NCBI RefSeq assembly: GCF_004010195.1
Contig: NC_057751.1
Span: 19,769,199 to 19,796,287, forward strand
Reading direction: 5' to 3'
Source: Chiloscyllium plagiosum
Taxonomy: Eukaryota
Length of the DNA stretch: 27,089 nucleotides
Within the stretch, counting starts at the first letter, position 1. Every line of letters starts with the position of its first letter. Shown here in pieces: positions 3,101-26,013 of the stretch. The position numbers and the translations under genes were made by a program. The notes beneath the pieces were generated by a model that was not told the DNA's origin, did not search any database, and was given only the letters and a program-made list of their open reading frames with translations.

Positions 3101-6100
3101 ACAGCTGAGATGACTGACCTCCAATAACCACAACCATATTCTTACGTGCTAGGTATGACTCCAACCAGGGGCATTTTCCCCTGAATCCCATTGACTCCAG
3201 TTTTAGAGTCATAGAAGTGTACAGCACAGTCCAACCTGTCCATACCTAACCTAATCTAGTCCCATTTGCCAGCACTAATCCCTCTAAACTCAGAACTAGA
3301 GAGCATAGATTTAGGGTAAGAGGGGAAAGATATAAAAGAGACCTAAGGGACAACTTTTTCACGCAGAGGGTGGTATGTGTATGGAATGAGCTGCCAGAAG
3401 AAGTGATGGAGACTAGTACAATTGCAACATTTAAAAGACATCTGGATGGGTATAAGAATAGGAAGGATTGGGAGAGATATGGGCCGGGTGCTGGCAGGTG
3501 GGACGAGATTGGGTTGGGATATCTGGTCGGCATGGACGGATTGGACCGAAGGGTCTACTTTCATGCTGCTCATCTCTATGACTCTATGACTTCATCAGAA
3601 GTCACACAACACCAAGCTATTGTCCAACAGATTTATTTGAAATCAGAAGCTTTTGGAGTGCTGCTTCTTCATCAAGCAAAGTCACAAAGCAGCAGTGCTC
3701 AGAAAGCTTGTGATTTCAAATAAACGTGTTGGACTATAAACTGGTGTGAGACTTCTGACCTTGTCCATCCCAGTCCAACACCACACCTCCATATTATGGC
3801 TACCACTTTAGGACCTTGATCAGTAGTGCTGGTGCTAAGCCACTCTTGGTAGTAGGCATTGAGATCCTCCAGAGTACGTTGTGCGTCTTTGCCAGCATCA
3901 GTGCTTCCGCCAAGTGTTGTTCAACACTAAGGAGGACTGATTAAACAGCCAAGGGAGAACTGTATGTGGTAATCACTAGGAGGTTTCCTTGCCCATGTTT
4001 AACATGAAACCATGAGACTTCATGGGGCCCAGAGTCAATGTTGAAGACCGCCAGGGCAGCTCCCTCCCGACTGTATACCACTGTGCCACCACCGCTGTTG
4101 GGTCTGCCTGCTGGTGGGACAGGATGTATCCAGGGACAGTGGTGGTGGTGGTGGTGGTGTCAGGGACAGAGAGAAAATGAGGACTGCAGATGCTGCAGAA
4201 TATATCAGAGTTGAAAAGTGTGGCGCTGGAAAAGCACAGCAGGTCAGACAGCATCTGAGGAGCAGGAGAATCAACATTTTGGGCATAAACCCTTCAATCA
4301 GGAATGCCTGTCCACCACCCATCGTCCTTGGTGCTGGATAGGACTCCAACCAGTGGACAGCTTCCCTCCAACATTGATTTCAATTGACTTTAAATTTTGC
4401 TGGAACATCTAGTAGCTCCATCCAGTCACATACTGCCCCTGTCAAGAACAATTACTCTCACTGCACTTCTTCAAACCAACTTTTTCATTTATGCCTGGGC
4501 CAAGACTGCAAGAGTCAAAATTGATTGGCCTTCACGGAACCAAAATGAAAATAAGATTCTTAAACCAAGCAGTCCAAGATTATTAGTCACCCTCACCCCT
4601 AAATTGACTCTGAAGACAGATCAAGTGTAATGGTAACAGTATTAATTCAACCACAGCCATTAGGAAATTTGCAAGCACCTTCCAATTTAGATTCACTGCA
4701 AATAATAACATTCAGTCTGTGTTAACCACTGCCCACTGTGATATAGCCAAGGCAAAGAATTCAAGACATACAAGCAATAGGGCAGATATGGTCATTGTTA
4801 AAAGGGGGAGAGAGAAATTCAAGAGTAACAGTTTCAAAAGATCAGAACAAAATACCTCTTGCAGGTTTACTGTTTTATCCTCAACATTTGTAACAATAAC
4901 CTGACTCACGATCAAAGGAACTGGCTTTAGGAATGGTGGCAGTTGGTGAAGGGAAGGGAAGTGAAGTACAATAAACAGCCTGAGAGCAGGTTTTTTTGTT
5001 AAAGCCAGACAGGAAAGGAGACACACAGAAAAGAGAAGTTGCTTCAGGTGTACAAGTACAGCAAATTTAACGTGCACCCTTACAGCAACTGATCATACAG
5101 ACTGGTGGAATATACAGATATATGGGATAAGATGACCTTGTTATGTTTTGTTTTCTTGCTCAATTTAGATCCTTTCAAACTCATCTATAATATTGGGAAC
5201 AATGTTGGATCAAACACCACTGAGATTTTTTTCTTACCTTTTGTTGCAACAGGCAAACCAAACCTATTTTGGAAAGAATAGATTATTAGAATTTTCTAAA
5301 AATCCATGTAAAACTAATGACAGCACTGTGGTACAGACCACTGAACCTTTTGTCTTATATTTAGCTTGTTTGAGAATGGATTAAAACCACTTTTAAAGTA
5401 GCTGATTAGTGAATCAATACTGCCATCATCTGGACAGTATTAGGATAGATACTTAAAATAAAGTAGTAAAGAGTAGAAAAAATGAATGAGCCTTAGCACT
5501 GACTAGTGGTCACCAGCATTTTGTTTCTTCTCAACCAATTAAAGATTTAAGAAAACTAAAACTAAGAGCTGCACAAGTTTGAGGACAAAACATAAGATTG
5601 CCTAAGATGAAAACACTAAATGCATGCTTCAGCAGTTTGACCCTTCAACAAATGAAAGTAGTTCAGCTGCCAGAGAAGTGATCTGAGTTTTGGACTGATT
5701 AGCAGACAGATTTATTATTAGAGTAGTATTAATTACTTGAATTTTTTGGTTGTTACAATGTGCACCAGAAAAAAGAGAGCACTGAACACTTAACTGCAGT
5801 TCATCCACACCTAAACTGGGGAAACGGTTTACTTCCTCTTCTCTGCAACTTTCTTCCCCCTCAGTTGAGACAGATCAAGTTTGCATCAAAATATCAGTAT
5901 CTAAAACCTCCAGCAACTACTGGAACACATTCAGGAGCTGATTTGCACCTCTCCGATATAAGACAAGGTGACAGTTTAGCCTCTCAAGCCTATTTTACCA
6001 TGGTTAACCTGTGACCAAACCCAGTCTTTGTTACTGACAAAAAAATATTAGGAATACGGAACAAACATCTCAGACTTCAAATTAATTGATCTTGCATCAA

Positions 6101-9100
6101 TTTCTGTTTGCAAAAAAATGTCAACCTTCTACCACTTCATGAAGAAGTGATTCCACATTTCACCCCTGAAGATTAATTCCAAGTTTTAAGACCATACCCA
6201 TAGTCCTAGACTTTCCAAATCAGTAGAAATTGGATTTTTGTTTTGCTATCTGCTCTTAACATTTTGAACAGTTCAATCAAATTGACCCATAGTCTTCTAC
6301 ATTTCAAGGACCACAAGAGTTTACACAAAATGTCCATGTATTGTTCTGGTAAACTTATAGTGCAGTCCTTCCAAGGATAATACTCAAATTGGAATCAAGA
6401 ATACAAGTGAACTGTTACAGTAACGTAATTATCTACCTGTGTTTTCCTTTAAAAGAAAAAGTAATTTACCAAACTTAATTATTTGTTGGATAATAAAGTG
6501 GAAGATCACCATGTTAGCATTTAGAAATCACTGACAGCTGTTTGAAGGATAGGGTGTTAAAGGAACACAGGAGCATTACATGTACTTGATTTAGGTTTAT
6601 TATTCAGGTGAAGACCAAAACTAAAGACTGGTTAAGCAAACTGACCTGTTTCTATCTTTTAAGTTCTATATAATAGCTCCCAACATCATGATCACTATAC
6701 TATATATTTGTATCAATATGCACAGCATGACAGTTCAACTCTATTTTGCAGAAAAATGTATCACCCCACAAATGAAATTCATGTTGCATAAAGGTTAAAT
6801 TTAAAGTTTGACAGCAAGTTTAGGTAAAGTACCATATCCAAGCCGGTTTGTGCAATAACTTACCGTGCAGCACGAGCAGCTTTCTTACTCTCTGCTGTCC
6901 CTGGTACATTGAACCGTTCTGCTCTTTTCTTTAGCCTCTGTAAAGAGGAAAACAAAAGTGAAGTGATATCAAATTCAACATGCTGTTTTACTAAATCTCT
7001 CAATTGTTAAGAAGTGATCAGGCAGTCAGTGCACATGACAGTGCAAGGTACATCTCCATCTTTGTCTTGACCACACTATCCTATACGGAGTTAAAAAACT
7101 TAAGCAAAACATGATACCCAAAGTGCCATGAGGTACCACAATAAGAGCCATTAACCTCACAAGGTGGGATAAAAGGCAAGTAGAATTTTTTTTTTGTTAT
7201 AATTTAATTCTGTGATAATTTAATTCCAAACAAATTCAGAAGAAAAGGATTAGGTTAAGGTGGTCAATGGCTATCAGTGTTCAAACTTCAAGTCTTTTTT
7301 TTCTTCTCATTCATCTCCATTTTGAAAACTTTTTCTCTTCTCCATAGCCTTCTGCACCATTCAACATCAGCTGACCAAGAGTTATCAGCAAGCTTCTTCC
7401 AATTTCGCCTGGAGAACACCAGTCACAGACTCATCTTCCTTTCTCAACGCAGGCAAAGAGAGTCATAGACATGTACAGCATGGAAACAGACCCTTCGGTC
7501 CAACCCGTCCATGCCGACCAGATATCCCAGCCCAATCTAGTCCTACCTGCCAGCACCCGGCCCATATCCCTCCAAACCCTTCCTATTCATATACCCATCC
7601 AAATGCCTCTTAAATGTTGCAATTGTACCAGCCTCCCACCACATCTTCTGGCAGCTCATTCCATACACATACCACCTTCTGCTTGAAAAAGTTGCCCCTT
7701 AGGTCTCTTTTATATCTTTCCCCTCTCACCCTAAACCTACGCCCTCTAGTTGTGGACTCCTCGATCCCAGGGAAAAGACTTTATCTATTTACCCTTTCCA
7801 TGCCCCTCATAATTTTGTAAACCTCTATAAGGTCACCCTCAACCTCCGACACTCCAGGGAGGTTCAGCCTCTCCCTGTACCTCAGATCCTCCAACCCTGG
7901 CAACATCCTTGTAAATCTTTTCTGAACACTTTCAACTTTCACAACATCTTTCCGATAGGAAGGAGACCAGAATTGCACATAATATTCCAACAGTGGCCTA
8001 ACCAATGTCCTGTACAGCAGCAACATGACCTCCCAACCCCTGTACTCAATAGTCTGACCAATAAAGGAAAGCATATCAAACGCCTTCTTCACTAACCTAT
8101 CTACCTGCGACTCCACTTTCAAGGAGCTATGAACCTGCACTCCAAGGTCTCTGTTCAGCAACCCCTCCTAGGACCGTACCATTAAGTGTACAAGTCCTGC
8201 TGAGATTTGCTTTTCCAAAATGCAGCACCTCGCATTTATCTGAATTAAACTCCATCTACCACTTCTCAGCCCATTGGCCCATCTGGTCCAGATCCTGTAG
8301 TAATCTGAGGTAACCTTCTTCGCTGTTCACTACACCTCCAATTTTGGTGTCATCTGCAAACTTACTAACTGTACCTCTTATGTGCGCATCCAAATCATTT
8401 ATGTAAATGACAAAAAGTAGAGGACCCAGCACCGATCCTTGTGGCACTCCACTGGTCACAGGCCTCCAGTCTGAAAAACAACCCTCCACGACCACCCTCT
8501 GTCTTCTACCTTTGAGCCAGTTCTGTATCCAAATGGCTAGTTCTCCCTGTATTCCATGAGATCTAACCTTGCTAATCAGTCTCCCATGGGGAACCTTGTC
8601 GAATGCCTTACTGAAGTACATATAGATCATATCTAAATACTTGTACTTCATTCTGTACTGTACCACCCCTACAACAATAGCTAAAAGCATTTTTATGTTG
8701 CTGTGGTTTAAAAGAGAGTGGAACTATGCTGGGCATTTGATGCCAATTTTCCACATATTTTCAACAGGATCAATTGTTAGTAAAGTGTTAGTTTACGAAA
8801 TAGACCAGTGAGCCTTATGTCTGTTGGAGGAAAGGTTTTGGAAAGGATTATGACAGATAGGATTTATAATCATCTCGCAAGCAACAATTTGATTGCAGAT
8901 AGTCAACATGGTTTTGTCAAGGGCAGGTCATGGCTCACAAACCTCATTAAGCTCTTTGAGAAGGTAACCAAACATGTGGACGAGGGCAGGGCAGTTGATG
9001 TGGTGTACATGGACTTCAGTAAGGCATTTGATAAGGTTCCACATGGTAGGCTGTTGGAGAAAATAGAGGCATGGGATTGAGAGTGATTTAGCAGTTTGGA

Positions 9101-12100
9101 TTAGAAACTGGCTCTCTCTAAGAAGGCAGCGAGTGGTGGTTGATGGAAAATATTCAGCCTGCAGTCTGGTTACTAGTGGTGTGCCACAAGTATCTGTTTT
9201 GGGACCACTGCTGTTTGTCATTTTTATAAATGACTTAGACGCAGGCATAAGTGGATGGGCTAGTAAGTTTGCAGATGACACAAAAGTCGGTGGACTGGCG
9301 GACAGTATGGAAGAGCGTTGCAAGTTGCAGGGGGACTTGGATAAACTGCAGAATTGGGCTGAGAGGTGGCAAATGGAGTTCAACGCAGATAAATGTGAGG
9401 TGATTCACTTTGGGAAGAATAACAGGAAGGCAGAATACTGGGTCAATGGAAGGATTCTTGGTAGTGTGGATGTCCATGTACATAGATCCCTGAAAGTTGC
9501 CACCCATGTTGATAGTGCTGTTAAGGCAGCATACAGCATGTTAGGTTTTATTGGTACAGGGATTGAGTTCTGGAGCCATAATGTCATGCTGCAACTATAC
9601 AAAACACTGGTGCAGCCACCCTTGGAATATTGTGTACAGTTCTAGTTGCCCCATTACAGGAAGGATGTGGAAGCATTGGAAAAAGTGCAGAGGAGATTTA
9701 CCAGGATGTTGCCTGGTCTGGAGGGAAAGTCTTATGAGGAAAGGCGGAGACACTTGGGTCTGTTGTCATTGGAAAGAATAAGGCTAAGAGGGGATTTGAC
9801 AGAGACAAAGATGATCAGAGGATTAGATAGACTTTCACTGTCTACCCTTCCTCCCAAGATGATAATGTCAGCTTGTATGAGAGGGCATAGCTACAAATTG
9901 AGGGGTGATAGATTTAAGACAGATGTCACAGGCAGGCTCTTTACTCAAGTGGTAAGGGCATGGAATACCTTGCCTGCCAATGTAGTTAACTCAGCCACAT
10001 TAGGGAGATTTAAACAATCCTTGGATAAGCACATGGATGATGATGGGATAGTGTAGGGTGATGACCTTAGATTAGTTCACAGGTCGGCGCAACAGAGGGC
10101 CGAAGGGCCCGTTCTGCGCTTTATTGCTCTATGTTCTAAAACTTGTAAAACCCACAAAGGTGAGCGCCTCAGAAGTAAAAGATGACTGAGCTAACTGCAT
10201 AGTAAGCTTTACACAGCATTTAAAATATGCTTGATTGACAATGTACAAGCACCTCAACACTGAGCACAAAGCCACATCTTATCTTTCCATTGCATAAGGG
10301 TGGCATGGTAGTTAGCACTGCTACCTCACAATGCCACGTCTGTGGGGGTTTCCTCTCAGTGCTTCAGTTTCCTGTGGATTGGCCATGCTAAATTACCCGC
10401 AGTGTCCAGTCATGAGCAGGCTAGGTGGATTAGCCAAGGATTTCAGGAGGGGTGGATCTGGGTGGGATGCTCTTCAGAGGGTTGATGTGGACAGGCCCAA
10501 TGGTCTGCTACTGCACTGTTGGGATGCTATGTTTCTGAGAATACTATAGTCATTTTAACCAAATTCTGCAAAATGGTCTGTTTACTATGTCCATTAATAA
10601 CACTGAAGTATAACTGGCCATTGCAGGATAACATGCATGACATTGGATGCATTCTCAAAACCTTACAGTACTTAAAGCACTCCTGATAGGTTTACAAGAG
10701 TTGAGATTCAGCTTATTTAGACCCATATTCATTCACAAAGCTAAAAAAAGGTTTTATGAAATCACACTTCACATAACTATGGGCATATTTTTTAGGGTGA
10801 GAGATTTAAAAAGAATATAAAGAGGCAGTTTTTTTAAAAAAAAAAGTGGTTCGTATATGCAAGAAACTTCCAGAAGTGGTGGATGTAGGTACATTTACAA
10901 TGTTTAAAAGACATTTGGACAGGCACATGAATAGGAAAGGTTTAGAGGGATATGGGCTAAGCGCAGGCAGGAGGAGGTAGTTCGGTTTGGGAATATGGTT
11001 GGCATGGACTGGTTGGACCGAAGAGTCTGTTTCCATGCTGTGTGGCTCTGACTCTACTACATGTACCTTCAAAGAGTGTTAAACAACTTTTCCCAAGCTT
11101 TTTATTTATGATCAATAAAACATAACTACATGCCTGTTTCTGTACTTCTCAAACTGACTGAGCTCAATACATAACATTTCATATTCCTTAAAACCTAGTG
11201 ATTTAGCCAAATGCTTTTTCATTTTCATCAAATGATTTCAATGTGATATTTATTTTAATGTTTTGAGTTAATTGATAAATATGGGAGTACCTAGTGGAAT
11301 AACTGATACCAACACCACTTTACACCATCCCCAATATTAACTCAAATGTTTTCAAAAAGTTTAGAATACCAAGTTACCGTTTGTACAATTCACATATTTC
11401 AACATTTAAAAAACTGAAATATTTCTCTAGTCTTGGATTCAGGTTTCATTGCATCTGTGGAATATAAAATTGTATACAGGACAAGATAATAAAAGAGCAG
11501 TGGTGAACGATCATTTTTCATACTGGAGGGAAACACAGTGATGCTCTCCTGAGATTGGTATTCAGACTACTGATTTCATATTGAACAACCTAAACTTGGA
11601 TACACAGGACATCATTTCGAAATATATGTATGCTACAAAATGCAAAAAAGTATAATAAGCAATATCAAGACCATGGTAAAAATAAAAATTTATCAGAACT
11701 GTTTTTAATCAGCTATAAAAATACCAATTTTGATGTGAAAAATAAGGTAATGAATGAATCAGTTTTCAGAAATGTTGAAAGAGACCCCGGGGACATTAAT
11801 ACACAAATCTGCAATGGTAACAGGACAAGCCAAGACGACAGTTATTAAAACAAAAAAATTCATATAGCTTTTTTAGAAACAAATGTAGAGTACAAAAGCA
11901 AACAAAGCAATGCTAAACATGTACACAACTGGGTCAGGTCTCAGGTGGAGCAATTTTCAAATCAGGCCACCACACATAATTCAGTACATCAAGGCCTTGA
12001 AGTGACTTAGAAGAGATTTACTAGAATGAAATCAGGCATGAGCAACTTCTGGTACGCTGGGGCCCCGCACGAAAGAAAGAAGGTTGAGAGAGAACAGGTG

Positions 12101-15100
12101 TTCAAAACCATGGATGGTTCAGAGACAGAGAAGGTGGTTACGCAGGTTTAAGCTGATTGGCTTGAGAACCAAAAGGTGACATGAAAATAAAAACGAGCTG
12201 TGATGATTTGGATTGAACTCTCTTTAAGGGTTACAGTAAGATTCAATAGTCACATTCATGTCTTCGAGGTTTTCCCCATGTCTGATAAAGATGTGTATGC
12301 CTAGAATAGGTCATTAGCATCTTGCCAGAAGCTTGAAGGTGCCACATCATATCAAGCATGACTGACCAAAAGATTCTGCCATTCTTACCACCTGCTATAG
12401 GTTTACTGATGGATTTATAAGCTGGTAACCAACCACTTGAGCTACGTTTTGAACACAGGCTCCTGGGCCATCAAGCCCTGGAGTGGGATTCAAACACAGA
12501 GCTTCGAGTTGAGAGGGAGAGGTATTATCCATTGTGTCACAAGACCTCCAGTCAGAGTCAAGAGAACTAGGTAAATACTTGGAGATTAAATAAAGGGCAA
12601 TGGGATTAATTGAGTAGCTTTACCAAAGGGCATGGGTGTGATGTGCTAGATGTTTCTTTCTCATACAACTTGCATTTTATCATTCTTGATGCATTCCAAT
12701 CGTTTGGACAATGCATAAATCTTCTTAAAACACACTTTTCTCTCGAATTAAAAATTAGGAAAACAAGCAAAACAGTACTTTCATTCAATTGCTTGCCTTG
12801 TTCTTCAGTGTTTGATCATTCAAAAAGTCAATCAGTTCACAGCCTGTTTATAGATGCATACCCCCAGTATGCATCTATACACTAGCCACATTTTTGGACC
12901 AAATGTTTAATTTTCTCCTACAGTTCTTTTTTCCGTTCATGGGATGTGGGCATCACTGGTTAGTCCAGTATTTACTCCTTATTCCCAGTGCCCTCATGAA
13001 GGTGGGGACAAGCTGCCTTCTCAAACTGCTGCAGTCCATTTGCTGTAACTGGAGCCACAAGGCTGTCAAGGAGGAGTTACATTTATTTCTTTTAATGCAA
13101 AATGTATTCAGACAAATTTAAAACAATTACAGAGGAACCTCGATTATCTGGCAGTTAACCGAATTGCAGATTATCTGAACAAGATCGCAAGATCCCGATG
13201 CTTGGCTAACTATGTTATCTCACATTCGATTAACCCAACGAAATACTCCCCGTTCGTGTCCTTTGGAGAATCAAGGTTCTTCTGCACATGACAATGGATA
13301 GATAGAATATTAATAGGTCAAGCTGTAAACGTTGCACCCCAAAATACACAGCATATTAGCACATTTCAATAACCGATTAACACCTCACACATAAGTTACT
13401 AGTTCAGATTGTTCAGCTGGGGAATAGAATAAACTGGGCACTCACCAATAGTTGTATTCCAAGAACTGAGAGCAAACTTTTGATCAATTCAAAAGGTTAG
13501 GGTACAAGAGGGTAGTTAAATGCTTTGCTCCCCAATCAAGACAACCTAATTGCATAGCATAGCTTGATAACTTTATTCCTAGGAGGTATGCTAGGAGAAA
13601 GTGAGGACTGCAGATCAGAGTTGAGTATGTGGTGCTGGAAAAGCACAGCAGGTCAGGCAGCATCTAATGAACAGAAGACTCAACGTTTCGGGCGTAAGCC
13701 CTTCATCAGGATGAAGGGCTTATGCCCGAAAAGTTGATTTGCTTGCTCCTTGGATGCTGCTCAGCCTGCTGTGCTCTTCCAGCACCACACTCTCGACTCC
13801 TAGAGGTATGTTGTACAGATATTATCAAGGCATGCTTAATTCAAACTGTTGCACTGAGTTTATTTGCTGCAAATTTTAAAAATTTAACTTCGTAGCAGGT
13901 GTAGTCTCTTCAAATAGTAACCCAGCCTGTATTCAAATGATTTAATGGCACCCAGCTGAAAGACAAATTCCTACTCAGAACACAAGGATCTCTACTTTTA
14001 AATCCTTGAGTTATGCAATCTTATAATTAATTTCTGAACAGTACAGGTCCAACCACCCACTCAAGACTGCTGTATTTACAGGAGTGACTAGCAATTGAAT
14101 ATTCAGAGTTAACACCCAAACCAGGATCACCAACTCAGTATTCTTTACTTCAATTTTATGTTCAGCAACAAGAGTTACTGGTGGAAACCCAAGACAGCCA
14201 CTATTTTAAAAAGCCCAGAATAGCTATACAAATTCATCTGCGTTATTTTACATATCACAAACCAACATACTTTAAAAATAAATTTGGCTTACTTGTACAT
14301 AGTTAACTGGAAAAAGGAGAACTAACCAAACACTGATAGACAAGCCAGGCAATATCTTATCAGGAATTCTCAGGTTGACAGCCTTCCGTCACTGCAGCAG
14401 CTCAGCCTTTAAAAGCGCCACAGCCCACCATTGCTGCACAGCATTTAAGAGTGCTTCGGCCCATCAATGCAACACAGCTTTTAGCGCCGCCACGCCGCAG
14501 CCTTTAGCGCCAGGACAGTCCTCCACCGCCGCGCCACAGCCTTTAGCGCCAGGACAGTCCTCAACCGCCACGCCGCAGCCTTTAGCGCCAGAACAGTCCT
14601 CCACCGCCACGCCGCAGCCTTTAGTGCCGGGAGACTACCCTCCCACTGCACCACAGCCTTTAGCGCTAGGATAGCCCACTGCTGCTGCAGAACAGCCTTT
14701 AGTGCTACGACAGCTTATAGCTGTAAACCAGCTTTTAACACTGCGACAATCCAATGGTTCCCAGTTTTTTTTAGCATTTTGACACACTGTTGCCATTGGA
14801 GGTCAGCTCTTAACACAGGGTCTGCCACTGCTGGCAGCTCACCTTGAGCGCTGACAATCTACCATTGCTGGTGCCAGGCTTTTACCATTCCAACTGTCTA
14901 TTGCTGACAATCACACTAACAGGCAGATTTTATCTTTTTCATATACCACAGCCAGTGTCTATGCCTTCTATTGCAGCTCTAATAACTTATCAACAAAACA
15001 ATTTAATAGGATGGATTTCACACGTGTCACATAATTCAATAGGGCAGGCAGGGACCCAGGTACAGTACGTGTTAAAAGACACAAGTGAAGTTATGCTGAC

Positions 15101-18100: not shown

Positions 18101-21100
18101 GACCTAAGACTATAATCCTTACATCTAGAATCTTCAGCCAGAAGAAAATCTTTCAATATCTATCCTGTTTCAGTCTCTCTGAATTCCATACATCTCAAAA
18201 ACATACTAAGAAAATTACAAACTTTGTACACAAGAAAATAAAACAGACTGCATAGCAAATGAAACTTAAATGTAGCATTACAGAACGATCAAGCTACTTA
18301 TCTTCACTGCAAGAGCGATCAGAAAAGAGTGAATCTCAGAACTAATTTACTGCCTGTTCACTCAGCTAACATGGACAAACAATAAAAATTTCAAATGATA
18401 ATGTCAGAAAATTCCAGAAACATGGGAAGAAACTACCTCAGTATCTTCTGCTAGAACATCTTCTTCATTCACTTCTTCCTCAGCTGCAAGAGAAATGAGT
18501 TGATTGATACTGAACCTAGATAAGCTTGAAACTGCAAACACAGGAGCAAGGACTTGGATTTAAACAATGACACATTTGTAGACGATTCAGTTATTCTAAT
18601 AAAGGCCCTGCTTAGTAAATTACTGGAACAGCGGCAAAAGGTAGAGGAAAATACAGTACGAGACAGGCAAAAAATAAAAACTTCCCCTCCAAAGGGATCG
18701 AAAAAGTGCTTTTCACATCAAAAGCCCCCTCTCCCACACACGCACATTCCATTTCTTTTAAGTATAGCATATGACGACATTAGGCAAGTGTATCGTATTC
18801 TTTCGAAGAATGTGCTATGACGACATTAGATTTCCTGGGCCCACGTGTAGTTTTATCACCAGCCACCTGCTATACCAGATTCCCTCCCATTCAGAGTGTA
18901 ACCACTGTCAGCACCTTAAGTGCCCATTCTCAACATGATTAATCTTGGCGGAGGATTCAACCAAAGGGTGACATCACTGCCTAGCCTGATCCTTTCCCAA
19001 TTCAACATTCATACACAGTACAATGATCACACAAGAACAAGATTAATGTTATCTTATCTGAGATACTGAAGACAATTGCACCTAAAGGGCCTCACACTCA
19101 AAATGCTAGCATCTTTGGATAGAAGTGTCATCTGACCTTGAATGCTCCCAGTATTTTCAGCTTTTGCTGCACTACTCCAAGATCAAGACTTGATTTAAAC
19201 ACCAACATTCAAAACGTTGGGCTAATTCTAACCTTTGTCTAGCTTGTTGCTTCTAAGGAAGCAAAGTCTAGGATTAAGTCTAATAAAACACTAGTAAAAA
19301 AAAGGTACAAACATCCCCACTAAATGAATGGGTAGTCCTTTCCTTTTGAGGATTAAAATGATTTATAACTCAAGATTATAACCAAATAATTAAGCTTCTA
19401 CAAATATTCATTCAATGGTTCCTTTTAAAAGCAAAACACAAATGATACCCAATTACACTTATGCATAGATCCTGCAGGTTACGTTTCCTGATTAAAGAGG
19501 AAGTTTATTCTGCAAATAAGTATTTTGAATGTTTAAGTAGACCTTTTATGATTGAGAGATTACTTAATGATTGATTAGGATTATTGTTCAGGTTTACCTC
19601 TAAAAGAAATGCAAAAATCAGTTAAGGTCTGAATGAGAACAATAGGTTAATGCATTTATAGTTTCTCTCTACTCCATCTTTCCCTCCACAGATACTGCCT
19701 GATCTGGAGTATTTCTGATATTTTCTATTTTATTTCAGATTTCCAGCATCTGCAGTATTTTGCTTTTAAGTGAAAAGCAGCATGCCTCAGACTGAGTTTT
19801 TGGAAGCCATGAATTGTGAATGTATTTTCTCAATTCTAACAATAATCTGGAATTAACATTTTACCCAAATGTACACATTAATGGAAACAAATTAAAAAAC
19901 ACACAGGAGAAATTCACATATAGCAAACTGATGGTTAAACCAAAAAAGCCTGGAAATATTAATTATATTAGCGAGTTTTGAGAAGATTTGTAGCTCAGAT
20001 TGAGGTTCTGGATGTAGGTTTGCTCACTGAGCTGGAAGGTTCATTTCCAGACATTTCGTCACCCTATAAAATACTGTACAAGGACTGTAACAAACACTAC
20101 ATTGGACAAACAGGCAGAAAACTAGCCACCAGAATACATGAACATCAACTAGTCACAAAACGACATGACTCTCTCTCATTCGTATCCTTACATATAGATG
20201 ATGAAGGACACCACTTAGACTGGGACAACACATTCATCTTAGGACAAGCCAAACAGAGAAACGTACGAGAATTCCTAGAAGCATGGCATTCCAACTGGAA
20301 CTCTATCAACAAACATATCGAGTTAGACCACATTTACCACCCCCTGAGAAAAACGAACAGGAAGTGATGTCACCACAGGAAATAACATCACCAACCCAAA
20401 AGAAACCCAAGCATCTAAACAGAAAGCAGGAATTATCAACAGTGCTTTACCAAGAGGCACACTGAAGATGTTACTTAGTCGGGTGACAAAATGTCTGAAA
20501 ATGAACCTTCCAGCTCAGCGAGCAAACCTACATCCATATTAATTATATTTCCCACTCACTTTTTATAAGTGGTAATTTTCAACTGAGATTGGGTACTGGA
20601 ATTGCAGTCTAACCGGAATGCCTGGCTTTACACAGCACAAGGACAAGATGAATACAGTACAGGCCTGTTCTAGCACATTCACTGAAAATACCTACATTCC
20701 TATTTAGAAAGTATTCATCAATAAGTCAATTAATTTCAATGTCAATGAAAGGCAATTTGAGATGCTGATTATTATTATGAAGTCCTAAATTTGCATTTCA
20801 CTTGTTTGATAGACAGAAGTAAACAACTTCCATGAAATAAGTAGATTTATTTAATCAATGCACACAACAGAGCACCTATTTTGTTCCAAAACAAAAGGTG
20901 AACGGAAGGGGGGGGGGAGAAAAAGACATTACACAAAGGTGCAACTAGATACACAATAAGTCTTTTTTTCCTTTTGCGTATCGTTGAATGAAAAGACAGC
21001 AATTAAATCAGTTAAATATTAATTTAATGTATTTATTGTTGAAATTACATCAACACTAAACCACAAAAATTAAGACTCTCAAAAAAGTGGGAACTAACTA

Positions 21101-23615
21101 ACATAAGGATGCAACTCAAGCACTTTGATCAACTTATAGAGACTGAACAGGCTGTACTTAACTGATTAATTGCTGTCTTTTTCCTTCAACGTTATGCAAA
21201 AGAAAAAAAAAAACAACGTATTGTGTATCGAGTTGCGCCTTGTGCAATGTGCTTCCCCGCTTAGGTAAGTTTTTTTTGGAACAAAATAGGTGCGCTGTTG
21301 CGTGCATTGATTAAATAAATCTACTTATTCCAGTGGTCTTTCAATTGTGGGGTGGGAGGTTGAAGACATATATAAAAGTTTATAAACCTTATAAATGTTT
21401 ATCAAATCATGAAGGGCATGGATAGGGTAAATAGACAAGGTCTTTTTCCCCAGGGTTGGAAGTCCAAAACTAGAGGATATAGGTTTAAGGTGAGAGGGAA
21501 AAGATTTAAAAGGGACCTAAGGGGCAACATTTTCACGCAGAGGGTGGTGTGTGTATGGAATGAGCTGCCAGAGAAGTGGTGGAGGCTGGTAAATTACAAC
21601 ATTTAAAAAGCATCTGGATGGGTTTATAAGGATATGGACCAAGTGCTGGCAAATAGGACTAGATTGGTTTAGGCTATCTGGTCAATTGGACCAAAGGCTA
21701 TGTTTCGATGCAGTATAGTCTATGACTCTGACACCGACACCAAAAGACACCTGTTATGACTCAACAATTGTTTAATCCAGAACTCAGCTAATTTATTATC
21801 CTGAATTCAATGTAATATTTTGTAAAAGACAAATTTTAATGATGTGTTTAAGTCAACATAGCTCTTCATAAATTCTTATAGTAATTTTATTTATTAAAAA
21901 TAAGTTGTTTGAGATTAAACATTAGTCATGATTTTACCATGTTCTTCCAGGTAAGCCTGCAGTCGCTGGATGAGATCTTGCTTGTTTCCTTTAGTATCCA
22001 GCTCCCTTGAAGCACATTCTTGTCTCAACTCAGTCAACTAAAGCACAATGAGAACAAAAACAGTCAGAACCATGGGTATTTTCAGTAAAGAAATGATTTG
22101 AGAAATTGGAGTCGACCACGTGACCTGCTTCATTCAATACAATAGTTGATATTTGGATTCAATTCCCTTTCTTGGCTGCTCTAAACCCTTTAGGGTAGAG
22201 AATTCCAAGGACTCTCAATCATTCAAGTGAAGTAATTTCTCCTCAGCTGGGCCCAACTTATTACTCTCTTATCCAGAAACTGGGCCATCACATTTTAGGT
22301 TCTCCAATCAGTGGAAACATTATCTCAGTGTCTATCGTGTTACACAGGATCTTGTACATTTCAATGAAATTGCCTTTCATTCTTCTAGTAAACAGTGGCC
22401 CAAATTACTCAGTCTCTCAGGACAATCCCATCATCCCCAGCACTGATTCAGTGAACACTGGCTGTATTGCCACTATATGGAAATGTAATCTCCCTTAAAA
22501 ATGGAAATTAAAAGTGCATATACATTTTTCCAAAACCTTGTACAATTAGAACAAGATTTATTGTTTCCTGTACTCCAATCTTAAGGTAAATGGGCAACAT
22601 CACTTCCCAATTGCTTGCAGTACATGCATTTCAGCTTTCCACATTCCTTGGAGAAACATACCCCACAATCTTTGAAAATCAGCATTTACGAGTTTCACAC
22701 CATTCCTGGTCACATTTATGCTAGTTCTTAGCTGGATCAATCCAAAACCATTTCTACAACCCCACTTTCTTCCCACAGTCAGTTATCAATCCAAATCTAA
22801 TCCCAGCACCCTCCTCCCTACAGATTTTAAAACTGACAATCCATCAACTCTACAACCATGGGATAGTCTTTCCTGATTCATAACACTGGAACCCCTTGTT
22901 AACTTAAAATAAAACTTTCGAATTATTTGCTCCAATTTCTCAGTCCCACTTTATAACTTTCCAAACTTCTATATTAGGGCGAATCTACAGAATTGTCGCT
23001 TCAACGTGCACTCTGAGCACCCAAAACCCAACTTTAGCAGTGGATCAACCAACGACTTGTACAAGTTATCTCTTATACGATTCCCCTATTTACAGAAGAA
23101 ATGACAACTTTCCTCATCAATGTTTCGCCCACTTGCTCTGACGTTCAGGGAATGGTAATCCATTTGAAATATCTGTAGTACACAGCAAAGAGACCTAGCT
23201 TAGACCAAACAACATAGCATAGTGGAGAGGGACGGTTGCCTACTTCAATGTGGCCCGTGACTTCCATGGGCGGTGCATTTAGCGATTCGTCCATTACGGA
23301 AACTTATTTGCTTCCTTTCAATTTGGCACTCGAAGCACATCCCATCTAAGTATGCCGCCTAAAATGATCGCAGAATTTTAGACTATCAGGGGGGAAAAAA
23401 CCAACCCCACCTTCAAAAAGGAGAGAAAACATAATCCACTTTGTGGGTCGCCCGAGGAAAATGAGAACAGAAAAACTGAAGCACGTAACCGTCACTAAAT
23501 CATAAAATCTCCAGTCTGACCGCGAACACATTACCTACATATGATTTATGATTATACTAAACTAAACTCCCTTTACCTTCAATTTGCTGATATCCACCGC
23601 CGCTCTGTCCGCCAT
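107..23615 (-). CDS. SARNP: SARNP (SAP domain-containing ribonucleoprotein, CIP29), spliced coding exons 1-8; 3' part outside the window
   Basis: Eight manually spliced GT-AG exons (39+100+47+74+52+74+26+26 = 438 nt) join in frame. The product has an N-terminal SAP domain (KLKLTELRQECASRELDTKGNKQDLIQRLQAYLEE), an acidic linker and RxxRF motifs (KRAERF, RAARFG), matching human SARNP as recalled (KLKLAELKQECLARGLETKGIKQDLIHRLQAYLEEH...KRAERFNVP...ESKKAARAARFG). Confidence 0.97.
294..576 (-). mobile_element. Degraded LINE (CR1/L2 group), minus strand; host of later insertions; continues at ~3063-3203 and ~3810-4520
   Basis: The same terminal sequence (tgggacatgggcatcacc...ccagcatttat...gagaaggt..gagctgcct...ctgcagtccat) recurs at ~12935-13075. 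Sequence resumes after the CR1 insertion. Confidence 0.55.
577..3062 (+). mobile_element. CR1-clade LINE, 5'-truncated ORF2 (APE endonuclease C-terminus + reverse transcriptase), frameshifted
   Basis: ORF fragments VMGDFNFPNIDW, LDLVLGNEPGQV...GEHFGDSDHN, PEDWREENVVPLFKKG..GNYRPVS, SQHGF, QMEFNLDKCEVMHF, LYKTLVRPHLEYC; 3' end ...ttctacgttctatg; multiple stops and frameshifts. Confidence 0.95.
3204..3288 (-). mobile_element. Short CR1 3'-end fragment, minus strand
   Basis: agagtcatagaagtgtacagc...aatctagtcccatttgccagcac matches the start of the minus-strand CR1 copies at 7457 and 26018. Confidence 0.7.
3289..3590 (+). mobile_element. CR1 3'-end fragment (~300 bp)
   Basis: Encodes VCVWNELPEEV...FKRHLDGY; ends in the ctctatgactctatgac tail repeat; reverse complement of 7457-7755. 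Confidence 0.9.
3595..3800. mobile_element. Fold-back element probably derived from a Penelope-like terminal repeat, with decayed hammerhead core
   Basis: Arms 3595-3665 and 3691-3758 are imperfect reverse complements (atttatttgaaatcagaagctt / aagcttgtgatttcaaataaac). The minus strand reads TTGATGAAGAAGCAGCACTCCAAAAGCT, resembling CTGATGA...CGAAA. Confidence 0.6.
3810..4169 (-). mobile_element. Degraded LINE APE-endonuclease region, minus strand
   Basis: Minus-strand translation includes VPGYILSH.. and, across frameshifts, remnants resembling GGTVVY, GPHEVSW, KHGQGNLL.ITTY; includes a short (GTG)n expansion at 4139-4159. Confidence 0.6.
4170..4305. mobile_element. Single-arm copy of the Penelope-like terminal repeat family (same family as 13591 and 25459)
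   Basis: gagaaaatgaggactgcagatgctg...ctggaaaagcacagcaggtcagacagcatc...tttgggcataaacccttcaatcagg aligns with 13594-13710; hammerhead core is mutated (minus strand CTGATTGA...CAAAATG). Confidence 0.75.
5238..5263 (-). CDS. SARNP: SARNP exon 7, 26-nt microexon (FGLPVATK)
   Basis: aaaatag|GTTTGGTTTGCCTGTTGCAACAAAAG|gtaaga; completes the RAAR-FG motif; human equivalent is FGISSVPTK. Confidence 0.9.
6864..6937 (-). CDS. SARNP: SARNP exon 6 (RLKKRAERFNVPGTAESKKAARAAR)
   Basis: ctctttacag|AGGCTAAAG...GCTGCACG|gtaagt; 74 nt; close to human RMQKRAERFNVPVSLESKKAARAAR. Confidence 0.97.
7457..8635 (-). mobile_element. CR1 LINE 3' portion (RT C-terminal half), minus strand
   Basis: ORFs 8256-8690 (FSKAFDKVPH...[22 protein letters not shown]...SKFADDTK) and 7781-8161 (LYRTLVRPLLEYYVQFWSP); tail agagtcataga at the left end. 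Confidence 0.95.
8798..10138 (+). mobile_element. CR1 LINE 3' portion (RT), different subfamily
   Basis: ORFs 8808-9080, 9133-9645 ([25 protein letters not shown]) and 9646-10056; tail ctctatgttcta. Confidence 0.95.
10298..10545 (+). mobile_element. tRNA-derived SINE (HE1/V-SINE-like), internally deleted
   Basis: Head gggtggcatggtagttagcactgctacctcaca; ggattggccatgctaaatt core; CR1-like tail; homologous to 17676-17986. Confidence 0.75.
10795..11058 (+). mobile_element. CR1 3'-end fragment, degraded
   Basis: tttaaaagacatttggac...ggactggttggaccgaagagtctgtttccatgctg..ctctgactct, homologous to 3289-3590. Confidence 0.85.
11490..12260 (+). mobile_element. Old, heavily degraded CR1 RT remnant
   Basis: Recognisable remnants (gagcagtggtgaacg, tagagtacaaaagc, gaagagatttactagaatg) colinear with the CR1 3' half; no intact ORF. 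Confidence 0.5.
12478..12546 (-). mobile_element. tRNA-derived SINE head, minus strand
   Basis: Minus strand GGTCTTGTGACACAATGGATAA...GTGTTTGAATCCCACTCCAG has A-box-like and B-box-like elements at tRNA-like spacing. Confidence 0.5.
12935..13075 (-). mobile_element. LINE 3'-end fragment, same family as 294-576
   Basis: ttcatgggatgtgggcatcactgg..ccagtattta...gaaggtgggg..agctgccttc...ctgcagtccat aligns with 294-400. Confidence 0.65.
13130..13284. mobile_element. 155-bp MITE of Tc1/mariner-pogo (Tigger-like) type
   Basis: TIRs cagaggaacctcgattatc / gagaatcaaggttcttctg (reverse complement cagaagaaccttgattctc); CAG...CTG termini; TA on the left, CA (decayed TA?) on the right. Confidence 0.75.
13591..13797. 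mobile_element. Fold-back Penelope-like terminal-repeat element with ~14-bp TSD
   Basis: Arms ~13618-13707 and ~13710-13799 are reverse complements; flanked by tcctaggaggtatg (13577-13590) and tcctagaggtatg (13798-13810). Confidence 0.85.
13682..13709 (-). ncRNA. Minimal hammerhead-ribozyme core motif (Penelope type)
   Basis: Minus strand CUGAUGA-A-GGGC-UUAC-GCCC-GAAAC-GUU has the conserved CUGANGA and GAAA, a 4-bp stem II and the palindromic ACGU stem III. Stem I pairing is poor in this copy, so activity is doubtful. Confidence 0.6.
14400..14745. repeat. 39-bp GC-rich minisatellite (~6 core copies plus degenerate flanks)
   Basis: cagccttta recurs at 14498, 14537, 14576, 14615, 14654 and 14693 (period 39); degenerate copies at 14403, 14439, 14475 and 14729. 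Confidence 0.92.
15576..15627 (-). CDS. SARNP: SARNP exon 5 (EVTAKKLVKIVAPMTESE)
   Basis: ttctttttcag|AGTTACAGCAAAG...GAGTGAG|gtgagt; 52 nt; KKLVKI corresponds to human KKVVKI. Confidence 0.93.
15715..16503 (+). mobile_element. Degraded CR1 3' portion
   Basis: Remnants of the dKc.v.HFGr.N, ggtcaccacattataggaagga, aggggacctgattgaagtgtataagatcatgag and VETWNALP segments; tail tgtatgattctatg. Confidence 0.85.
16940..17038 (+). mobile_element. tRNA-derived SINE head fragment
   Basis: tgtagtggcaat (A-box-like) and gggttcaagtccc (B-box) at tRNA-like spacing; no complete cloverleaf. Confidence 0.5.
17365..17438 (-). CDS. SARNP: SARNP exon 4 (EEEQQQQKVEPEVQSQTVAIKEPE, divergent linker)
   Basis: tatacag|GAGGAGGAACAACAG...CCAGAAGA|gtaaat; 74 nt; phase 0 in and phase 2 out fits exons 3 and 5; sequence is divergent from human. 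Confidence 0.85.
17676..17986 (+). mobile_element. HE1-like tRNA-derived SINE
   Basis: gcacggtgg..cactgctgcctcacagcacca...tgtctgtgtggagtttgcacatt...gtgggtttcctcc...taaattgccc...gggtgggatgctct...cacactgtagggattctat; typical elasmobranch SINE body with CR1-like tail. Confidence 0.85.
18437..18483 (-). CDS. SARNP: SARNP exon 3 (AEEEVNEEDVLAEDTE)
   Basis: ttctcttgcag|CTGAGGAAG...ACTGAG|gtagtt; 47 nt; matches human AEEEANEEDVLGDETE. Confidence 0.95.
19663..19766. repeat. Older fragment related to the Penelope-like terminal repeat family, reverse orientation relative to 4170
   Basis: ccacagatactgcctgatctg...tttcagatttccagcatctgcagt; ccagcatctgcag is the reverse complement of ctgcagatgctgg seen at 25478. 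Confidence 0.55.
19970..20535 (+). mobile_element. Penelope-like retroelement, 5'-truncated: GIY-YIG endonuclease C-terminus with inverted partial terminal repeat and 14-bp TSD
   Basis: ORF 19978-20367 contains YKILYKDCNKHYIGQTGRKLATRIHEH...H..DWDN...REFLEAWH; 20010-20064 is the reverse complement of 20481-20535; atattaattatatt flanks both sides (19956-19969 and 20536-20549). Confidence 0.92.
20836..21329. repeat. Long inverted repeat / putative fold-back MITE (~175-bp arms, ~140-bp spacer)
   Basis: aataagtagatttatttaatcaatgcac... (20836) pairs with ...gtgcattgattaaataaatctacttatt (21329); pairing continues to aatcagttaa (21015) / ttaactgatt (21158). Confidence 0.9.
21398..21731 (+). mobile_element. 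CR1 3'-end fragment
   Basis: ORF 21409-21606 MKGMDRVNRQGLFP...TRGYRFKVRGKRFKRDLRGNIFTQRVVCVWNELP; tail ctatgactct. Confidence 0.9.
21938..22037 (-). CDS. SARNP: SARNP exon 2, SAP domain (LTELRQECASRELDTKGNKQDLIQRLQAYLEEH)
   Basis: tttag|TTGACTGAG...GAACATG|gtaaaa; 100 nt; clear SAP-domain translation. Confidence 0.97.
22105..22700 (-). mobile_element. Old degraded CR1 3' remnant, minus strand
   Basis: ggtagagaattccaaggactctcaatcattcaagtgaagtaatttctcctca resembles the reverse complement of the CR1 'RNFFTQRVVNLWNSLP' region. Confidence 0.5.
23577..23615 (-). CDS. SARNP: SARNP coding exon 1 (MADRAAVDISKLK)
   Basis: Minus strand caagATGGCGGAC...AAATTGAAG|gtaaag; strong Kozak context; phase 0 donor. 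Confidence 0.93.
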
Positions 23616-23710
23616 CTTGCCAGGCTTCTAACCCGCTCACCACCTATCCAATAGGAAGCCGCTTTACTCTTTTACCTCACTGACCAACACGCTGCCTCAC
23701 CATTGGCTCA
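23606..23710 (-). promoter_or_regulatory. Putative SARNP core promoter / 5'UTR
   Basis: YY1-type motif CAAGATGGCGG overlapping the ATG (minus strand); CCAAT at 23648-23652 and ATTGG at 23702-23706; ETS-like AGGAAG at 23653-23658; local CpG enrichment (~23250-23730) in otherwise CpG-poor DNA; no clear TATA box. Confidence 0.65.
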
Positions 23711-24753
23711 AAAGAGACAGTAAGACGCTCAATCTACTGTGCTAGAGAGATCTGGGGTGGGGGGAATAATTTAAGAGCAAAACCTCACAATTATATTTCT
23801 CAACATTTAACAAAAAATATATGTTAGAATGAAAGTTTAAAATTATAAAAAATTATGGCGACATATCTTATGCGAAGATAATAAATCCTGTGGAAAGTTA
23901 TTATATGTGACCCTTGCCAGTCAATTGCTTAGTGACCACCTTCATTGGAATGACTACCAAATAATATCATTTCAAGAACAGTTATCGGGTAATTTTCAAA
24001 GTTGGATGCCAGAAAGGACAGCTGTTTCTGCACTTGTTAACCCACTCGTCTTTTGCTTATTTGTTTCAATGAGCAGAAAATTGTGGAGTGGCAGGCAGAG
24101 AAAGAGGAAAACTGGCCAAATACCTTATTTTCTTTATATAAAGGTTGTGCAAGTACAGACCTGTTGTACATTTACATTTGTAAGTGAACCAGTTTTGTGA
24201 GAACATTTAGCAATGTTTTTATTGAGTTACCCACTTCTGGACTGGACAAAATGTTGAAGCTCAATTCTTAATGCATGTGTATCAGCAGTTTGAATCTGCA
24301 GGTTTTGGAACTAAGCTCAATCTCGTCCTTATGTACTGTCCAAATCTATTCCTACCACAGTCTACTGGAGAGTGATCAAAGGGAGAAACTGACTGACACC
24401 TCCCTCCATAACCTACGGCTGGTGAGGTCAATTGTGACCCACTATTTCCCATCTGAGGTCGAACAACTGGCTACAAGCTGTGGTCAACCCTGGGACCATT
24501 TGGTCTAAATGGTACCTTGATGCATTTCCTCACTAAATCACTGGAGAGCTACTGTGTATTATGCGAAAACTGTAATGGCAACTGTCTTAGCTGATCTTAG
24601 CCACTTCCCTGCAATGGGGAGGGGAAAATCAAGCAGGATTCTAGTTTCTAATGTCACAATGCATGTAATTGTAATACATAAAATATTGTAATTTCAACTT
24701 GGAATACATGTAATGTAATCTGAACTTCTCAAGGTGATTGCTGCGCAAAGTCA

Positions 24754-24955
24754 GTCTTGGCTCAGTACTCTCACCTGTGTCAGGAGGTTGTGGATTTAAG
24801 CTTCACATGAATGCATGATCTAGGTTGGCACTCTGCAGTGTCAAAGGTGCTGTCTTTCAATGCCCTATCTGCCCACTCAGGTGAGCATAAAAGATCCTTT
24901 GGTACTAATATAAAGAGATAGAGAGTTCTCATGAAACATTTATCCTTGAATCCAC
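24754..24955 (+). mobile_element. DeuSINE/SacSINE-like SINE, 5' part
   Basis: ggtgctgtctttc...ctatctgcccactcaggtgagcataaaagatcc..tggtacta...gagttctc...atttatcc resembles the Deu-domain consensus as recalled; degraded tRNA-like head at ~24754-24805. Confidence 0.6.
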
Positions 24956-26013
24956 ACTAACTCAACACGGGAGCCCCCCAGTTGTGTGTACTCAGCCCCC
25001 TACTGTACTCGCTGTATACCCATGACTGCGTCGCCAAATACCAGACTAATGCCATATACAAGTTCACTGATAACACCATCATAGTCGGTCAAATCTCAGA
25101 TAATGACGAAACAGACTACAGACGGGAGGTGGAAGACCTGGAAAAATGGTGCACTGAGAACAACCCAGCTCTTAATGCCGGCAAAACCAAGGAACTCATT
25201 ATTGACTTTCGACAGGATGTTACTGAAGCGCCCCCTACACATTAACAGCACAGAGTGGAGAGTGTCAAGCTCCTGGGAGTGGTCATCCACAACAAGCTTT
25301 CTTGGACTCCTCATGTGGACGCACTGGTTACAAAGGCCCAACAACATCTCTTCTTCCTCAGTCAGCTGAGGAAATTGGGCATGACGGCAAATACCCTTGC
25401 CAACTTTTATAGATGTACTATTGAGAGCATTCTGTCTGGATGTGTCACTACCTGGTATCTTCTGGAGAAAGTGAGGTCTGCAGATGCTGGAGATCAGAGA
25501 TGGGAATGTGTTGCTGGAAAAGCGCAGCAGGTCAGGCAGCATCCTGACCTGCTGCGCTTTTCCAGCAACACATTTCCATCACTACCTGGTATGGCAACTG
25601 TACCATTCAAGATCTGAGATGGTCACAGAGAGTGGTGAACTCGGCCCAGACAATCACAAAGGTCAACCTCCCATCTAAAGAATCCATCTACCAGGCCCTC
25701 TGTCAAGGAAAGGCCGCCAGCATTCTCAAAGATCCATCCCACCCTGGCAATGTTTTTCTACAACCTCTAGCATCGGGGAGAAGGTACAGAAGCCTGAGCA
25801 CACGCACCAGCCGGTTTTGCAACAGTTTCTACCCTACTGTTGTGAGAATACTGAAAGGACTCGCAAACTCTTATCATTTGCCTGTACCTGTGTTTTTTGT
25901 TTTTGCTGCTATTTACCTATTATTTACTTATTTATGCTACTTAACTCTGTGATCTGCCTGTATTGCTCGCGAGACAAGCCTCGGTACACATGACAATAAA
26001 TTCAATTCAATCA
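24956..26013 (+). mobile_element. Rex1/Babar-like non-LTR retrotransposon 3' portion (RT), interrupted at 25459-25578
   Basis: NTGAPQ.CVLSPLLYSLYTHDC...YKFTDNT..VG.IS.NDE..YR.EV...WC.ENN..LN..KTKELIIDFR; FYRCTIESILSGC; HP...LQPLASGRRYRS...T.RF.NSFYP; 3' end aataaattcaattcaatcaa. Confidence 0.85.
25459..25578. mobile_element. 120-bp hairpin insertion from the Penelope-like terminal repeat family, 14-bp TSD
   Basis: tcactacctggtat duplicated at 25445-25458 and 25579-25592; 36-bp stem 25501-25536 / 25543-25578. Confidence 0.9.

What the first reader, a model, noticed from the sequence alone, without database searches (positions are those of the whole stretch)
3595..25592. Candidate system: short Penelope-derived fold-back elements sharing ~14-bp TSDs and hammerhead-ribozyme motifs
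Seen in sequence: three independent insertions (13591-13797, 19970-20535, 25459-25578) each have a ~14-bp direct duplication and the same architecture, an inverted copy of the element's own end. Two belong to one sequence family, also present at 4170-4305; a different family does the same at 3595-3758. Four loci carry CUGANGA-stem-GAAA motifs in varying states of decay. Established: Penelope-like elements (GIY-YIG endonuclease + RT) often have an inverted 5'-truncated terminal repeat and minimal hammerhead ribozymes. Inference: Penelope machinery in this lineage generates very short non-coding hairpin inserts with a near-fixed 14-nt nick stagger. These could be abortive insertions (fold-back points differ between copies) or a self-propagating non-autonomous ribozyme-bearing family.
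Basis: partly seen in the sequence, partly recalled or inferred. Interest (0 to 1): 0.7.

Follow-up and report, generated by a model that had tools for sequence, protein, structure and literature searches.

The report
Stubby Penelope retroelement insertions in shark
These short mirror-image inserts are truncated insertions of Penelope-like jumping genes in a shark genome, a known pattern, though their lopsided arms suggest that each end of the cut DNA starts its own copy of the element's RNA.

Summary
The features are real. Three inserts carry target duplications (14, 14, and 14/13 bp), four are head-to-head arm pairs, and four hold minimal-hammerhead remnants, one with both core boxes intact. 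They are 5'-truncated ends of Penelope-like elements (PLEs) in the published 'inverted pLTR plus 30-40-nt tail' layout. The insert at 19970-20535 is collinear with shark RT/GIY-YIG proteins. No coding parent was found for the other two families. 'Fold-back' is probably the wrong mechanism. At 19970-20535 the tail-less arm (471 nt, with endonuclease sequence) is five times longer than the tailed arm, and 11 of 13 scored junctions from other copies show the same excess. The best reading is two target-primed reverse transcriptions, one from each nicked strand, starting at the two sites 37-39 nt apart and joined by microhomology. A self-copying hairpin family is not supported: junctions vary (193 listed), and the strongest equals about 29 copies among 47,568 contigs laid. 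'Fixed 14-nt stagger' rests on three cases, and end microhomology allows 12-14. This scan has noted the same pattern on other DNA of this genome (107 notes fit one look-up). New member of a known kind.

The parts
13577..13590 (.). Insert A, left target-site duplication (14 nt)
13591..13710 (-). Insert A, tailed arm of family 1: hammerhead to pLTR end, plus tail 13591-13617 (27 nt; 8 nt shorter than in insert C)
   Evidence: family ends from loose-end piles
13682..13709 (-). Minimal hammerhead core with both boxes intact, 4-bp stem II, palindromic ACGU at 15.1-16.1; position 17 is U here, C in most family reads
   Evidence: table 3 row 13682
13711..13797 (+). Insert A, tail-less arm; 18 differences in 90 nt from the tailed arm
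13798..13810 (.). Insert A, right TSD (13 nt, one base missing; first 2 nt also match the element)
19956..19969 (.). Insert B, left TSD (14 nt, all A/T)
19970..20064 (-). Insert B, short tailed arm of family 2 (39-nt tail 19970-20008; arm stops inside hammerhead stem II)
20065..20535 (+). Insert B, long tail-less arm: GIY-YIG endonuclease 3' part (20065-20364), 3' region, decayed hammerhead (20462-20495), pLTR end
   Evidence: (collinear with P0001 over 157 codons, E 7e-55)
20536..20549 (.). Insert B, right TSD (14 nt exact)
25445..25458 (.). Insert C, left TSD (14 nt), inside a LINE-like reading frame
25459..25543 (-). Insert C, tailed arm of family 1 (37-nt tail 25459-25495); stops before the hammerhead
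25544..25578 (+). Insert C, tail-less arm, about 95% identical to the tailed arm
25579..25592 (.). Insert C, right TSD (14 nt exact; first 2 nt also match the element)
4170..4306 (-). Insert D, single tailed arm of family 1 with decayed hammerhead (about 4273-4301); no second arm, no TSD
3595..3675 (-). Insert E, left (tail-less) arm of family 3 with decayed hammerhead
3686..3795 (+). Insert E, right arm starting just after the CUGANGA box, with an unpaired extension 3759-about 3795 taken to be the tail (end not fixed); no TSD

Best explanation
The inserts are 5'-truncated, one-step insertion products of endonuclease-bearing Penelope-like retroelements, built anew at each landing. Shown: TSDs, head-to-head arms, one arm ending in a 37-39-nt tail and the other at the tail-less pLTR end, GIY-YIG sequence in insert B, variable junctions. 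Inferred: the RT-GIY-YIG protein, probably as a dimer, nicks both target strands 12-14 nt apart. Each 3' end primes its own reverse transcription, one at the tail end and one at the second start site 37-39 nt upstream. Both cDNAs stop early, often at the front edge of the hammerhead, and are joined through 1-3 nt of microhomology. The hammerhead rides along in the pLTR, and the template was not cut at it.
For: Insert B: the tailed arm is 95 nt and the tail-less arm 471 nt with endonuclease coding sequence; each holds sequence the other lacks. 11 of 13 scored junctions from other family-1 copies have a second arm reaching 25-95 nt beyond the tailed arm. Tail-less arms stop at matching positions in A and C, tails are 37 and 39 nt in two families, and family contigs pile up loose ends near the pLTR end and also carry the tail (table 7). 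The anole Poseidon protein nicks and extends both strands, starts RT at two sites that bound the tail, is predicted to dimerise, and uses uncleaved RNA (PMC11167929). The arms of A and D extend past the ribozyme cut site to the CUGANGA box.
Against: A, C and E alone are near-symmetric hairpins that snap-back explains equally well. The 11 junctions are not independent (about five clusters). Five are flagged 'between: not known', and two clusters sit where copy A departs from the family majority (13615, 13664), which can pull apparent breakpoints there. Only 15 of 193 joints were shown. Later deletion of a palindrome centre could also give unequal arms. No RT/EN parent was found for families 1 and 3. 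D and E have no TSD. TSD length rests on three inserts.
Confidence: 0.6

Rival explanations
1. Snap-back: a single cDNA primed at the tail folds back on 1-3 nt of self-complementarity and is copied. The endonuclease then cuts at its own pLTR/tail boundary and joins the second target end. Unequal arms arise later by deletion at the unstable palindrome centre.
For: A and C fold with 4-6-nt loops. Self-priming was proposed for such palindromes (PMC3846280 Discussion), and EN-mediated resolution for the tail (PMC8557442). 2 of 13 scored joints are compatible.
Against: Insert B and 11 of 13 scored joints need an extra deletion each. B's shared arms are about 95% identical and its TSD is exact, so it is not an old, much-eroded insert. 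The in vitro data explain the tail by two RT start sites.
Confidence: 0.25
2. The hairpins form a self-propagating non-autonomous family: a complete palindromic RNA is retrotransposed with its junction intact.
For: Some junctions recur: depth 529 and 355 against a single-copy depth of 18-19, roughly 29 and 19 copy-equivalents. The family is very abundant.
Against: A and C, same family, have different junctions. 193 joints are listed and none dominates among 47,568 contigs laid in X1. The recurring ones sit at short microhomologies with the hammerhead's front edge and may be independent hot spots.
Confidence: 0.1
3. They are MITE-like DNA transposon derivatives with terminal inverted repeats, or chance hairpins.
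For: Short, palindromic, TSD-flanked.
Against: The repeats are not terminal (a tail lies outside one arm), arm lengths vary, B carries GIY-YIG sequence of an RT element, and chance is excluded.
Confidence: 0.03

Closest known systems
Inverted pLTR plus tail insertions of endonuclease-positive Penelope-like elements (PMC3846280, passages and Discussion read; PMC8557442, passages read; PMC2377424, passages read)
   Same: Head-to-head inverted 5'-truncated copy, a 30-40-nt tail on one arm only, palindromic junction, flanking TSD.
   Different: Here the inserts are 120-570 nt and extremely numerous, and TSDs are 12-14 nt against the 8-10 bp reported in the rotifer. In insert B the ORF-bearing arm is the tail-less one.
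Anolis Poseidon (PAc) in vitro mechanism (PMC11167929, parts 1-2 of 4 of the text read plus a term search)
   Same: [quoted passage not shown]
   Different: The paper does not discuss TSDs, stagger or inverted pLTR formation (0 hits for TSD, duplication, stagger). Targets of A and C are not AT-rich.
Minimal hammerheads of metazoan PLEs (PMC4209133, parts 1-2 of 4 read)
   Same: CUGANGA, one bulged base, G10.1-C11.1, palindromic 15.2-16.2, little helix I; pairs on opposite strands 100-700 bp apart and single motifs from truncated PLEs were already reported.
   Different: No shark entry in the two supplementary files searched (one further file was not searchable). Cleavage was not tested here.
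Non-LTR retrozymes (10.64898/2026.07.22.740005, part 1 of 5 and passages read)
   Same: Non-coding, type I hammerhead, PLE-pLTR origin, reported in one chondrichthyan.
   Different: Defined by head-to-tail tandem units each with a hammerhead; these inserts are single or head-to-head.
LINE-1 twin priming (recalled, not from a call)
   Same: Both nicked strands prime cDNA, giving a 5' inversion joined by microhomology within one TSD.
   Different: In L1 the two cDNAs copy mostly different parts of the RNA. Here they start at fixed sites 37-39 nt apart and overlap, which needs strand displacement or two RNAs.

Membership tests
EN+ Penelope-like element (family 2, insert B) | C-terminal GIY-YIG endonuclease | tested here: met
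   20065-20364 is 78% identical to P0001 (E 2e-42; 21 of 30 candidates passed). The Pfam GIY-YIG match is weak and below cut-off (E 0.013), as for the full homologues.
EN+ Penelope-like element (family 2, insert B) | RT in the same ORF of the parent | tested here: met
   Not in the window copy. Homologues P0017 and P0005 carry RVT_1 above cut-off, and P0001 reads from RT motifs through EN into the same pLTR.
EN+ Penelope-like element (family 2, insert B) | pLTR with hammerhead, 30-40-nt tail, inverted truncated copy | tested here: met
Penelope/Poseidon clade rather than Neptune (family 2) | [quoted passage not shown] | tested here: inconclusive
   No cysteine cluster seen by eye in the linker of alignment A1 (criterion from PMC8557442). 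No tree was built.
EN+ Penelope-like element (families 1 and 3) | RT/GIY-YIG parent that ends in this repeat | tested here: inconclusive
   Family-1 read-through peptide searches gave only shark gene models with the repeat exonised (P0023-P0026) and one unrelated repeat protein. Family 3 was not searched. No genome was held.
EN+ Penelope-like element (families 1 and 3) | Hammerhead-bearing end module, tail, inverted truncated copy | tested here: met
   Family 1. Family 3: arms and hammerhead remnant met, tail end not fixed.
Minimal type I hammerhead | Core boxes, bulge after A9, G10.1-C11.1, palindromic 15.1-16.1, H17 | tested here: met
   Intact in A's tailed arm. Family majority letters restore the CG palindrome and C17. 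The same layout lies beside GIY-YIG matches in 6 of 27 metagenome loci. Rfam models do not detect it.
Minimal type I hammerhead | Stem II covariation | tested here: inconclusive
   Stem II differs in sequence between families 1 and 2 and still pairs (4 and 6-7 bp). The only family-3 copy that keeps its first box pairs 1 bp before a mismatch. No within-family alignment of many copies was available.
Minimal type I hammerhead | Self-cleavage | not testable with these tools
   Needs an assay.
Non-LTR retrozyme | Two or more head-to-tail units, each with a complete hammerhead | tested here: not met
   Window copies are single or head-to-head. Go-back joints (13664 to 13590) show partial tandems elsewhere in the family (table 5c).
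MITE / self-copying palindromic element | Terminal inverted repeats and many copies with one shared structure | tested here: not met
   The tail lies outside the arms, and junctions vary.

The most novel reading that the evidence does not exclude
Shark genomes hold a very large natural record showing that PLEs integrate by double-ended target-primed reverse transcription: a dimer nicks both strands about 12-14 nt apart in more than one PLE lineage, and each end primes at one of the two known RT start sites. That single rule would explain inverted pLTRs, one-sided tails and their variants. In addition, family 1 may be copied from a short non-coding RNA that begins at the front edge of the hammerhead, a SINE-like passenger of PLE proteins, since many arms stop there and no coding parent was found.
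Probability: 0.35. Interest if true: 0.55.

Novelty: new member of a known kind. Interest (0 to 1): 0.3.

Why it matters
The element class, the layout and the ribozyme motif are all published, so as a discovery it is ordinary. What remains useful is mechanistic. How PLEs make their inverted repeats and tails is still called unresolved (PMC8557442, PMC11167929). Inserts whose tail-less arm is the longer one separate two-ended priming from snap-back, and this family offers tens of thousands of contigs' worth of cases to count.

Tried and rejected
No genome was held, so TSD lengths could not be tabulated across copies. Rfam at E<=5: 6 matches, microRNA-precursor and CRISPR-repeat models on hairpins, all far below gathering scores and rejected as shape matches; no hammerhead. 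A family-1 pattern found 0 matches in metagenome and in viral contigs. Endonuclease relatives in metagenomes: 27 loci of 147 candidates, from other organisms; no convincing TSD around inverted arms (one 14-nt AT-rich repeat in L016 and several 8-mers were treated as chance). Empty-site test for insert A failed because organisms B and C carry the same insertion (records 9, 16, 17, 24). No RNA holder was listed for the stretch. 2,534 RNA reads from about 2% of run X21 lay on the family in both orientations with no start or end piles; this polyA single-cell library says nothing for or against a short RNA or cleavage. Parent of family 1: 0 of 6 candidates, 2 hits, 3 of 112, none with RT or EN. Whether A's arms came from two different RNAs: each arm has about 8-10 departures from the family majority and they differ at 18 of 90 sites while the TSD copies have no substitution (P about 0.055), but CpG decay and age also fit, so it is left open. 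Literature: ten searches found no paper on shark PLE palindromes, on a 14-bp PLE TSD, or on twin priming as the source of inverted pLTRs. The library lacks most subscription papers and Repbase/Dfam entries. bioRxiv supplements were not available and one supplement of PMC4209133 could not be searched, so absence from print is not shown. PMC8969392, PMC5718144 and PMC6155905 were seen as passages only and added no TSD data. A look-up of this scan by sequence and one on asymmetric arms found nothing.

Full report
Setting. The window is repeat-rich intronic DNA around a minus-strand gene with a SAP domain exon at 21949-22034 (it looks like SARNP, name recalled). The closest named proteins to its mobile elements come from carpet sharks. 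No whole genome was held.

Observation. Inserts B (19970-20535) and C (25459-25578) are bracketed by exact 14-nt repeats, and insert A (13591-13797) by a 14/13-nt pair with one indel. Of 3000 random intervals, 1 had an exact bracketing repeat of 10 nt or more. C interrupts a LINE-like frame, which runs 109 codons without a stop once the insert and one repeat copy are removed in silico. A, C and D (4170-4306) are one family at 81-85% identity, while B and E (3595-about 3795) belong to two others. D and E have no duplication. Four loci keep hammerhead remnants and only A's has both boxes. Rfam finds none.

Anatomy. A, B, C and E are pairs of arms joined head to head, with element 3' ends pointing outward. 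One arm ends in an unpaired tail: 37 nt in C, 39 in B, 27 in A after an 8-nt loss. The other arm stops at the tail boundary. This is the published inverted-pLTR-plus-tail layout (PMC3846280; PMC8557442). The first 1-2 nt of each right-hand duplication also match the element, so the true stagger is 12-14 nt. Rotifer PLE duplications are 8-10 bp.

Insert B ties the pattern to a coding element. 20065-20364 encodes the 3' part of a GIY-YIG endonuclease, 78% identical to a zebra-shark model. That model aligns along the whole long arm for 157 codons, through the hammerhead to the tail-less end (E 7e-55). Close homologues carry an RT domain above the Pfam cut-off. For family 1, three searches with read-through peptides gave only host gene models that had absorbed the repeat, so its parent is unproven. 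Family 3 was not searched.

Family-wide view. Laying four runs on insert A at 80% likeness gave 47,568, 55,957 and 7,686 contigs in three organisms and 2,534 RNA reads. Insert A is shared by all three organisms. Majority letters restore a cleaner ribozyme than copy A has, with C at position 17 (548 of 651 plus-direction RNA reads differ from A at 13682). Loose ends pile up near the pLTR end (2,825 contigs at 13627-13629 in X1, agreement about 0.4) and others carry the tail (397 at 13608). Sequence beyond the hammerhead's front edge is mixed (agreement 0.43-0.44). 193 joints were listed and 15 shown. The strongest has depth 529 against a single-copy depth of 18-19, about 29 copies, so no junction dominates among those detected. 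Contigs break in high-copy repeats, so this is a lower bound on recurrence.

Mechanism. Snap-back predicts that the second arm is a sub-part of the first cDNA. B breaks this rule: its tailed arm is 95 nt, its tail-less arm 471 nt, and each has sequence the other lacks. I scored 13 of the 15 shown joints, leaving out two opposite-strand joints that were ambiguous or tandem-type. In 11 the second arm reaches 25-95 nt beyond the tailed arm. These fall in about five clusters, five have unknown sequence between the sides, and two clusters coincide with places where copy A departs from the majority, so they support but do not prove the point. The simplest account is two priming events. The anole Poseidon protein nicks and extends both strands, starts at two RNA sites that bound the tail, is predicted to be a dimer and uses uncleaved RNA (PMC11167929). 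That paper does not draw the link to inverted repeats or duplications, and an earlier one proposed self-priming. I give two-ended priming 0.6 and snap-back with later central deletion 0.25. A, C and E alone cannot tell them apart.

Ribozyme. The motif matches the minimal PLE hammerhead point by point: bulge after A9, G-C at the base of stem II, palindrome at 15.2-16.2 (PMC4209133). The same layout lies beside endonuclease matches in 6 of 27 metagenome loci. Arms in A, D and E stop at or near the first box, past the cut site, so the template was uncut. Many second arms in other copies start there too. This may be an RT stall or the 5' end of a short RNA; the data do not decide.

Verdict. Real, and a miniature, abundant form of a known PLE insertion pattern. 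Earlier notes of this scan describe the same thing on other pieces of this genome; they are unchecked and I do not count them as evidence. The part worth following is the unequal-arm test of how PLEs integrate.

Noticed in passing
window 20829-21336: An imperfect palindrome of about 500 nt with arms of about 195 nt (80% overall, 94% at the outer 63 nt); MITE-like, unrelated to the Penelope families, no clean TSD found.
   Followed up: partly
window 19660-19770 (+): Decayed relic related to the 3' end of family 1; no hammerhead, no second arm, no TSD. Possibly an older PLE end.
   Followed up: partly
window 13577-13590 and 25445-25458: Both family-1 targets start with TC, which also matches the element at the tail-less junction, and both contain GGTAT at their right end. 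n=2, may be chance or a target preference.
   Followed up: no
window 13129-13288: Short element with about 22-nt terminal inverted repeats, resembling a Tc1/mariner-type MITE (class recalled; arms printed).
   Followed up: partly
window 14448-14713: GC-rich tandem array of about seven 39-nt units in an intron.
   Followed up: no
window 20065-20535 versus P0008, P0011, P0012, P0013: The shark endonuclease piece is 52-60% identical to trematode and unnamed PLE proteins, and P0011/P0012 read through into a recognisably similar pLTR.
   Followed up: no
P0002, P0010, P0018, P0020, P0023-P0026: Several shark gene models (MAP3K7, CUEDC2, FUBP3-like, BTBD6-B and others) include PLE endonuclease or pLTR pieces; exonisation or annotation error.
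   Followed up: no
window 3060-4440: Inserts D and E sit at breaks between pieces of a minus-strand LINE-like element, with a CR1-like fragment next to E; rearrangement may explain their missing TSDs.
   Followed up: partly
table 5c, joints 13664 to 13590/13591: Some family-1 copies jump back to the tail after about 80 nt, forming partial head-to-tail tandems.
   Followed up: no
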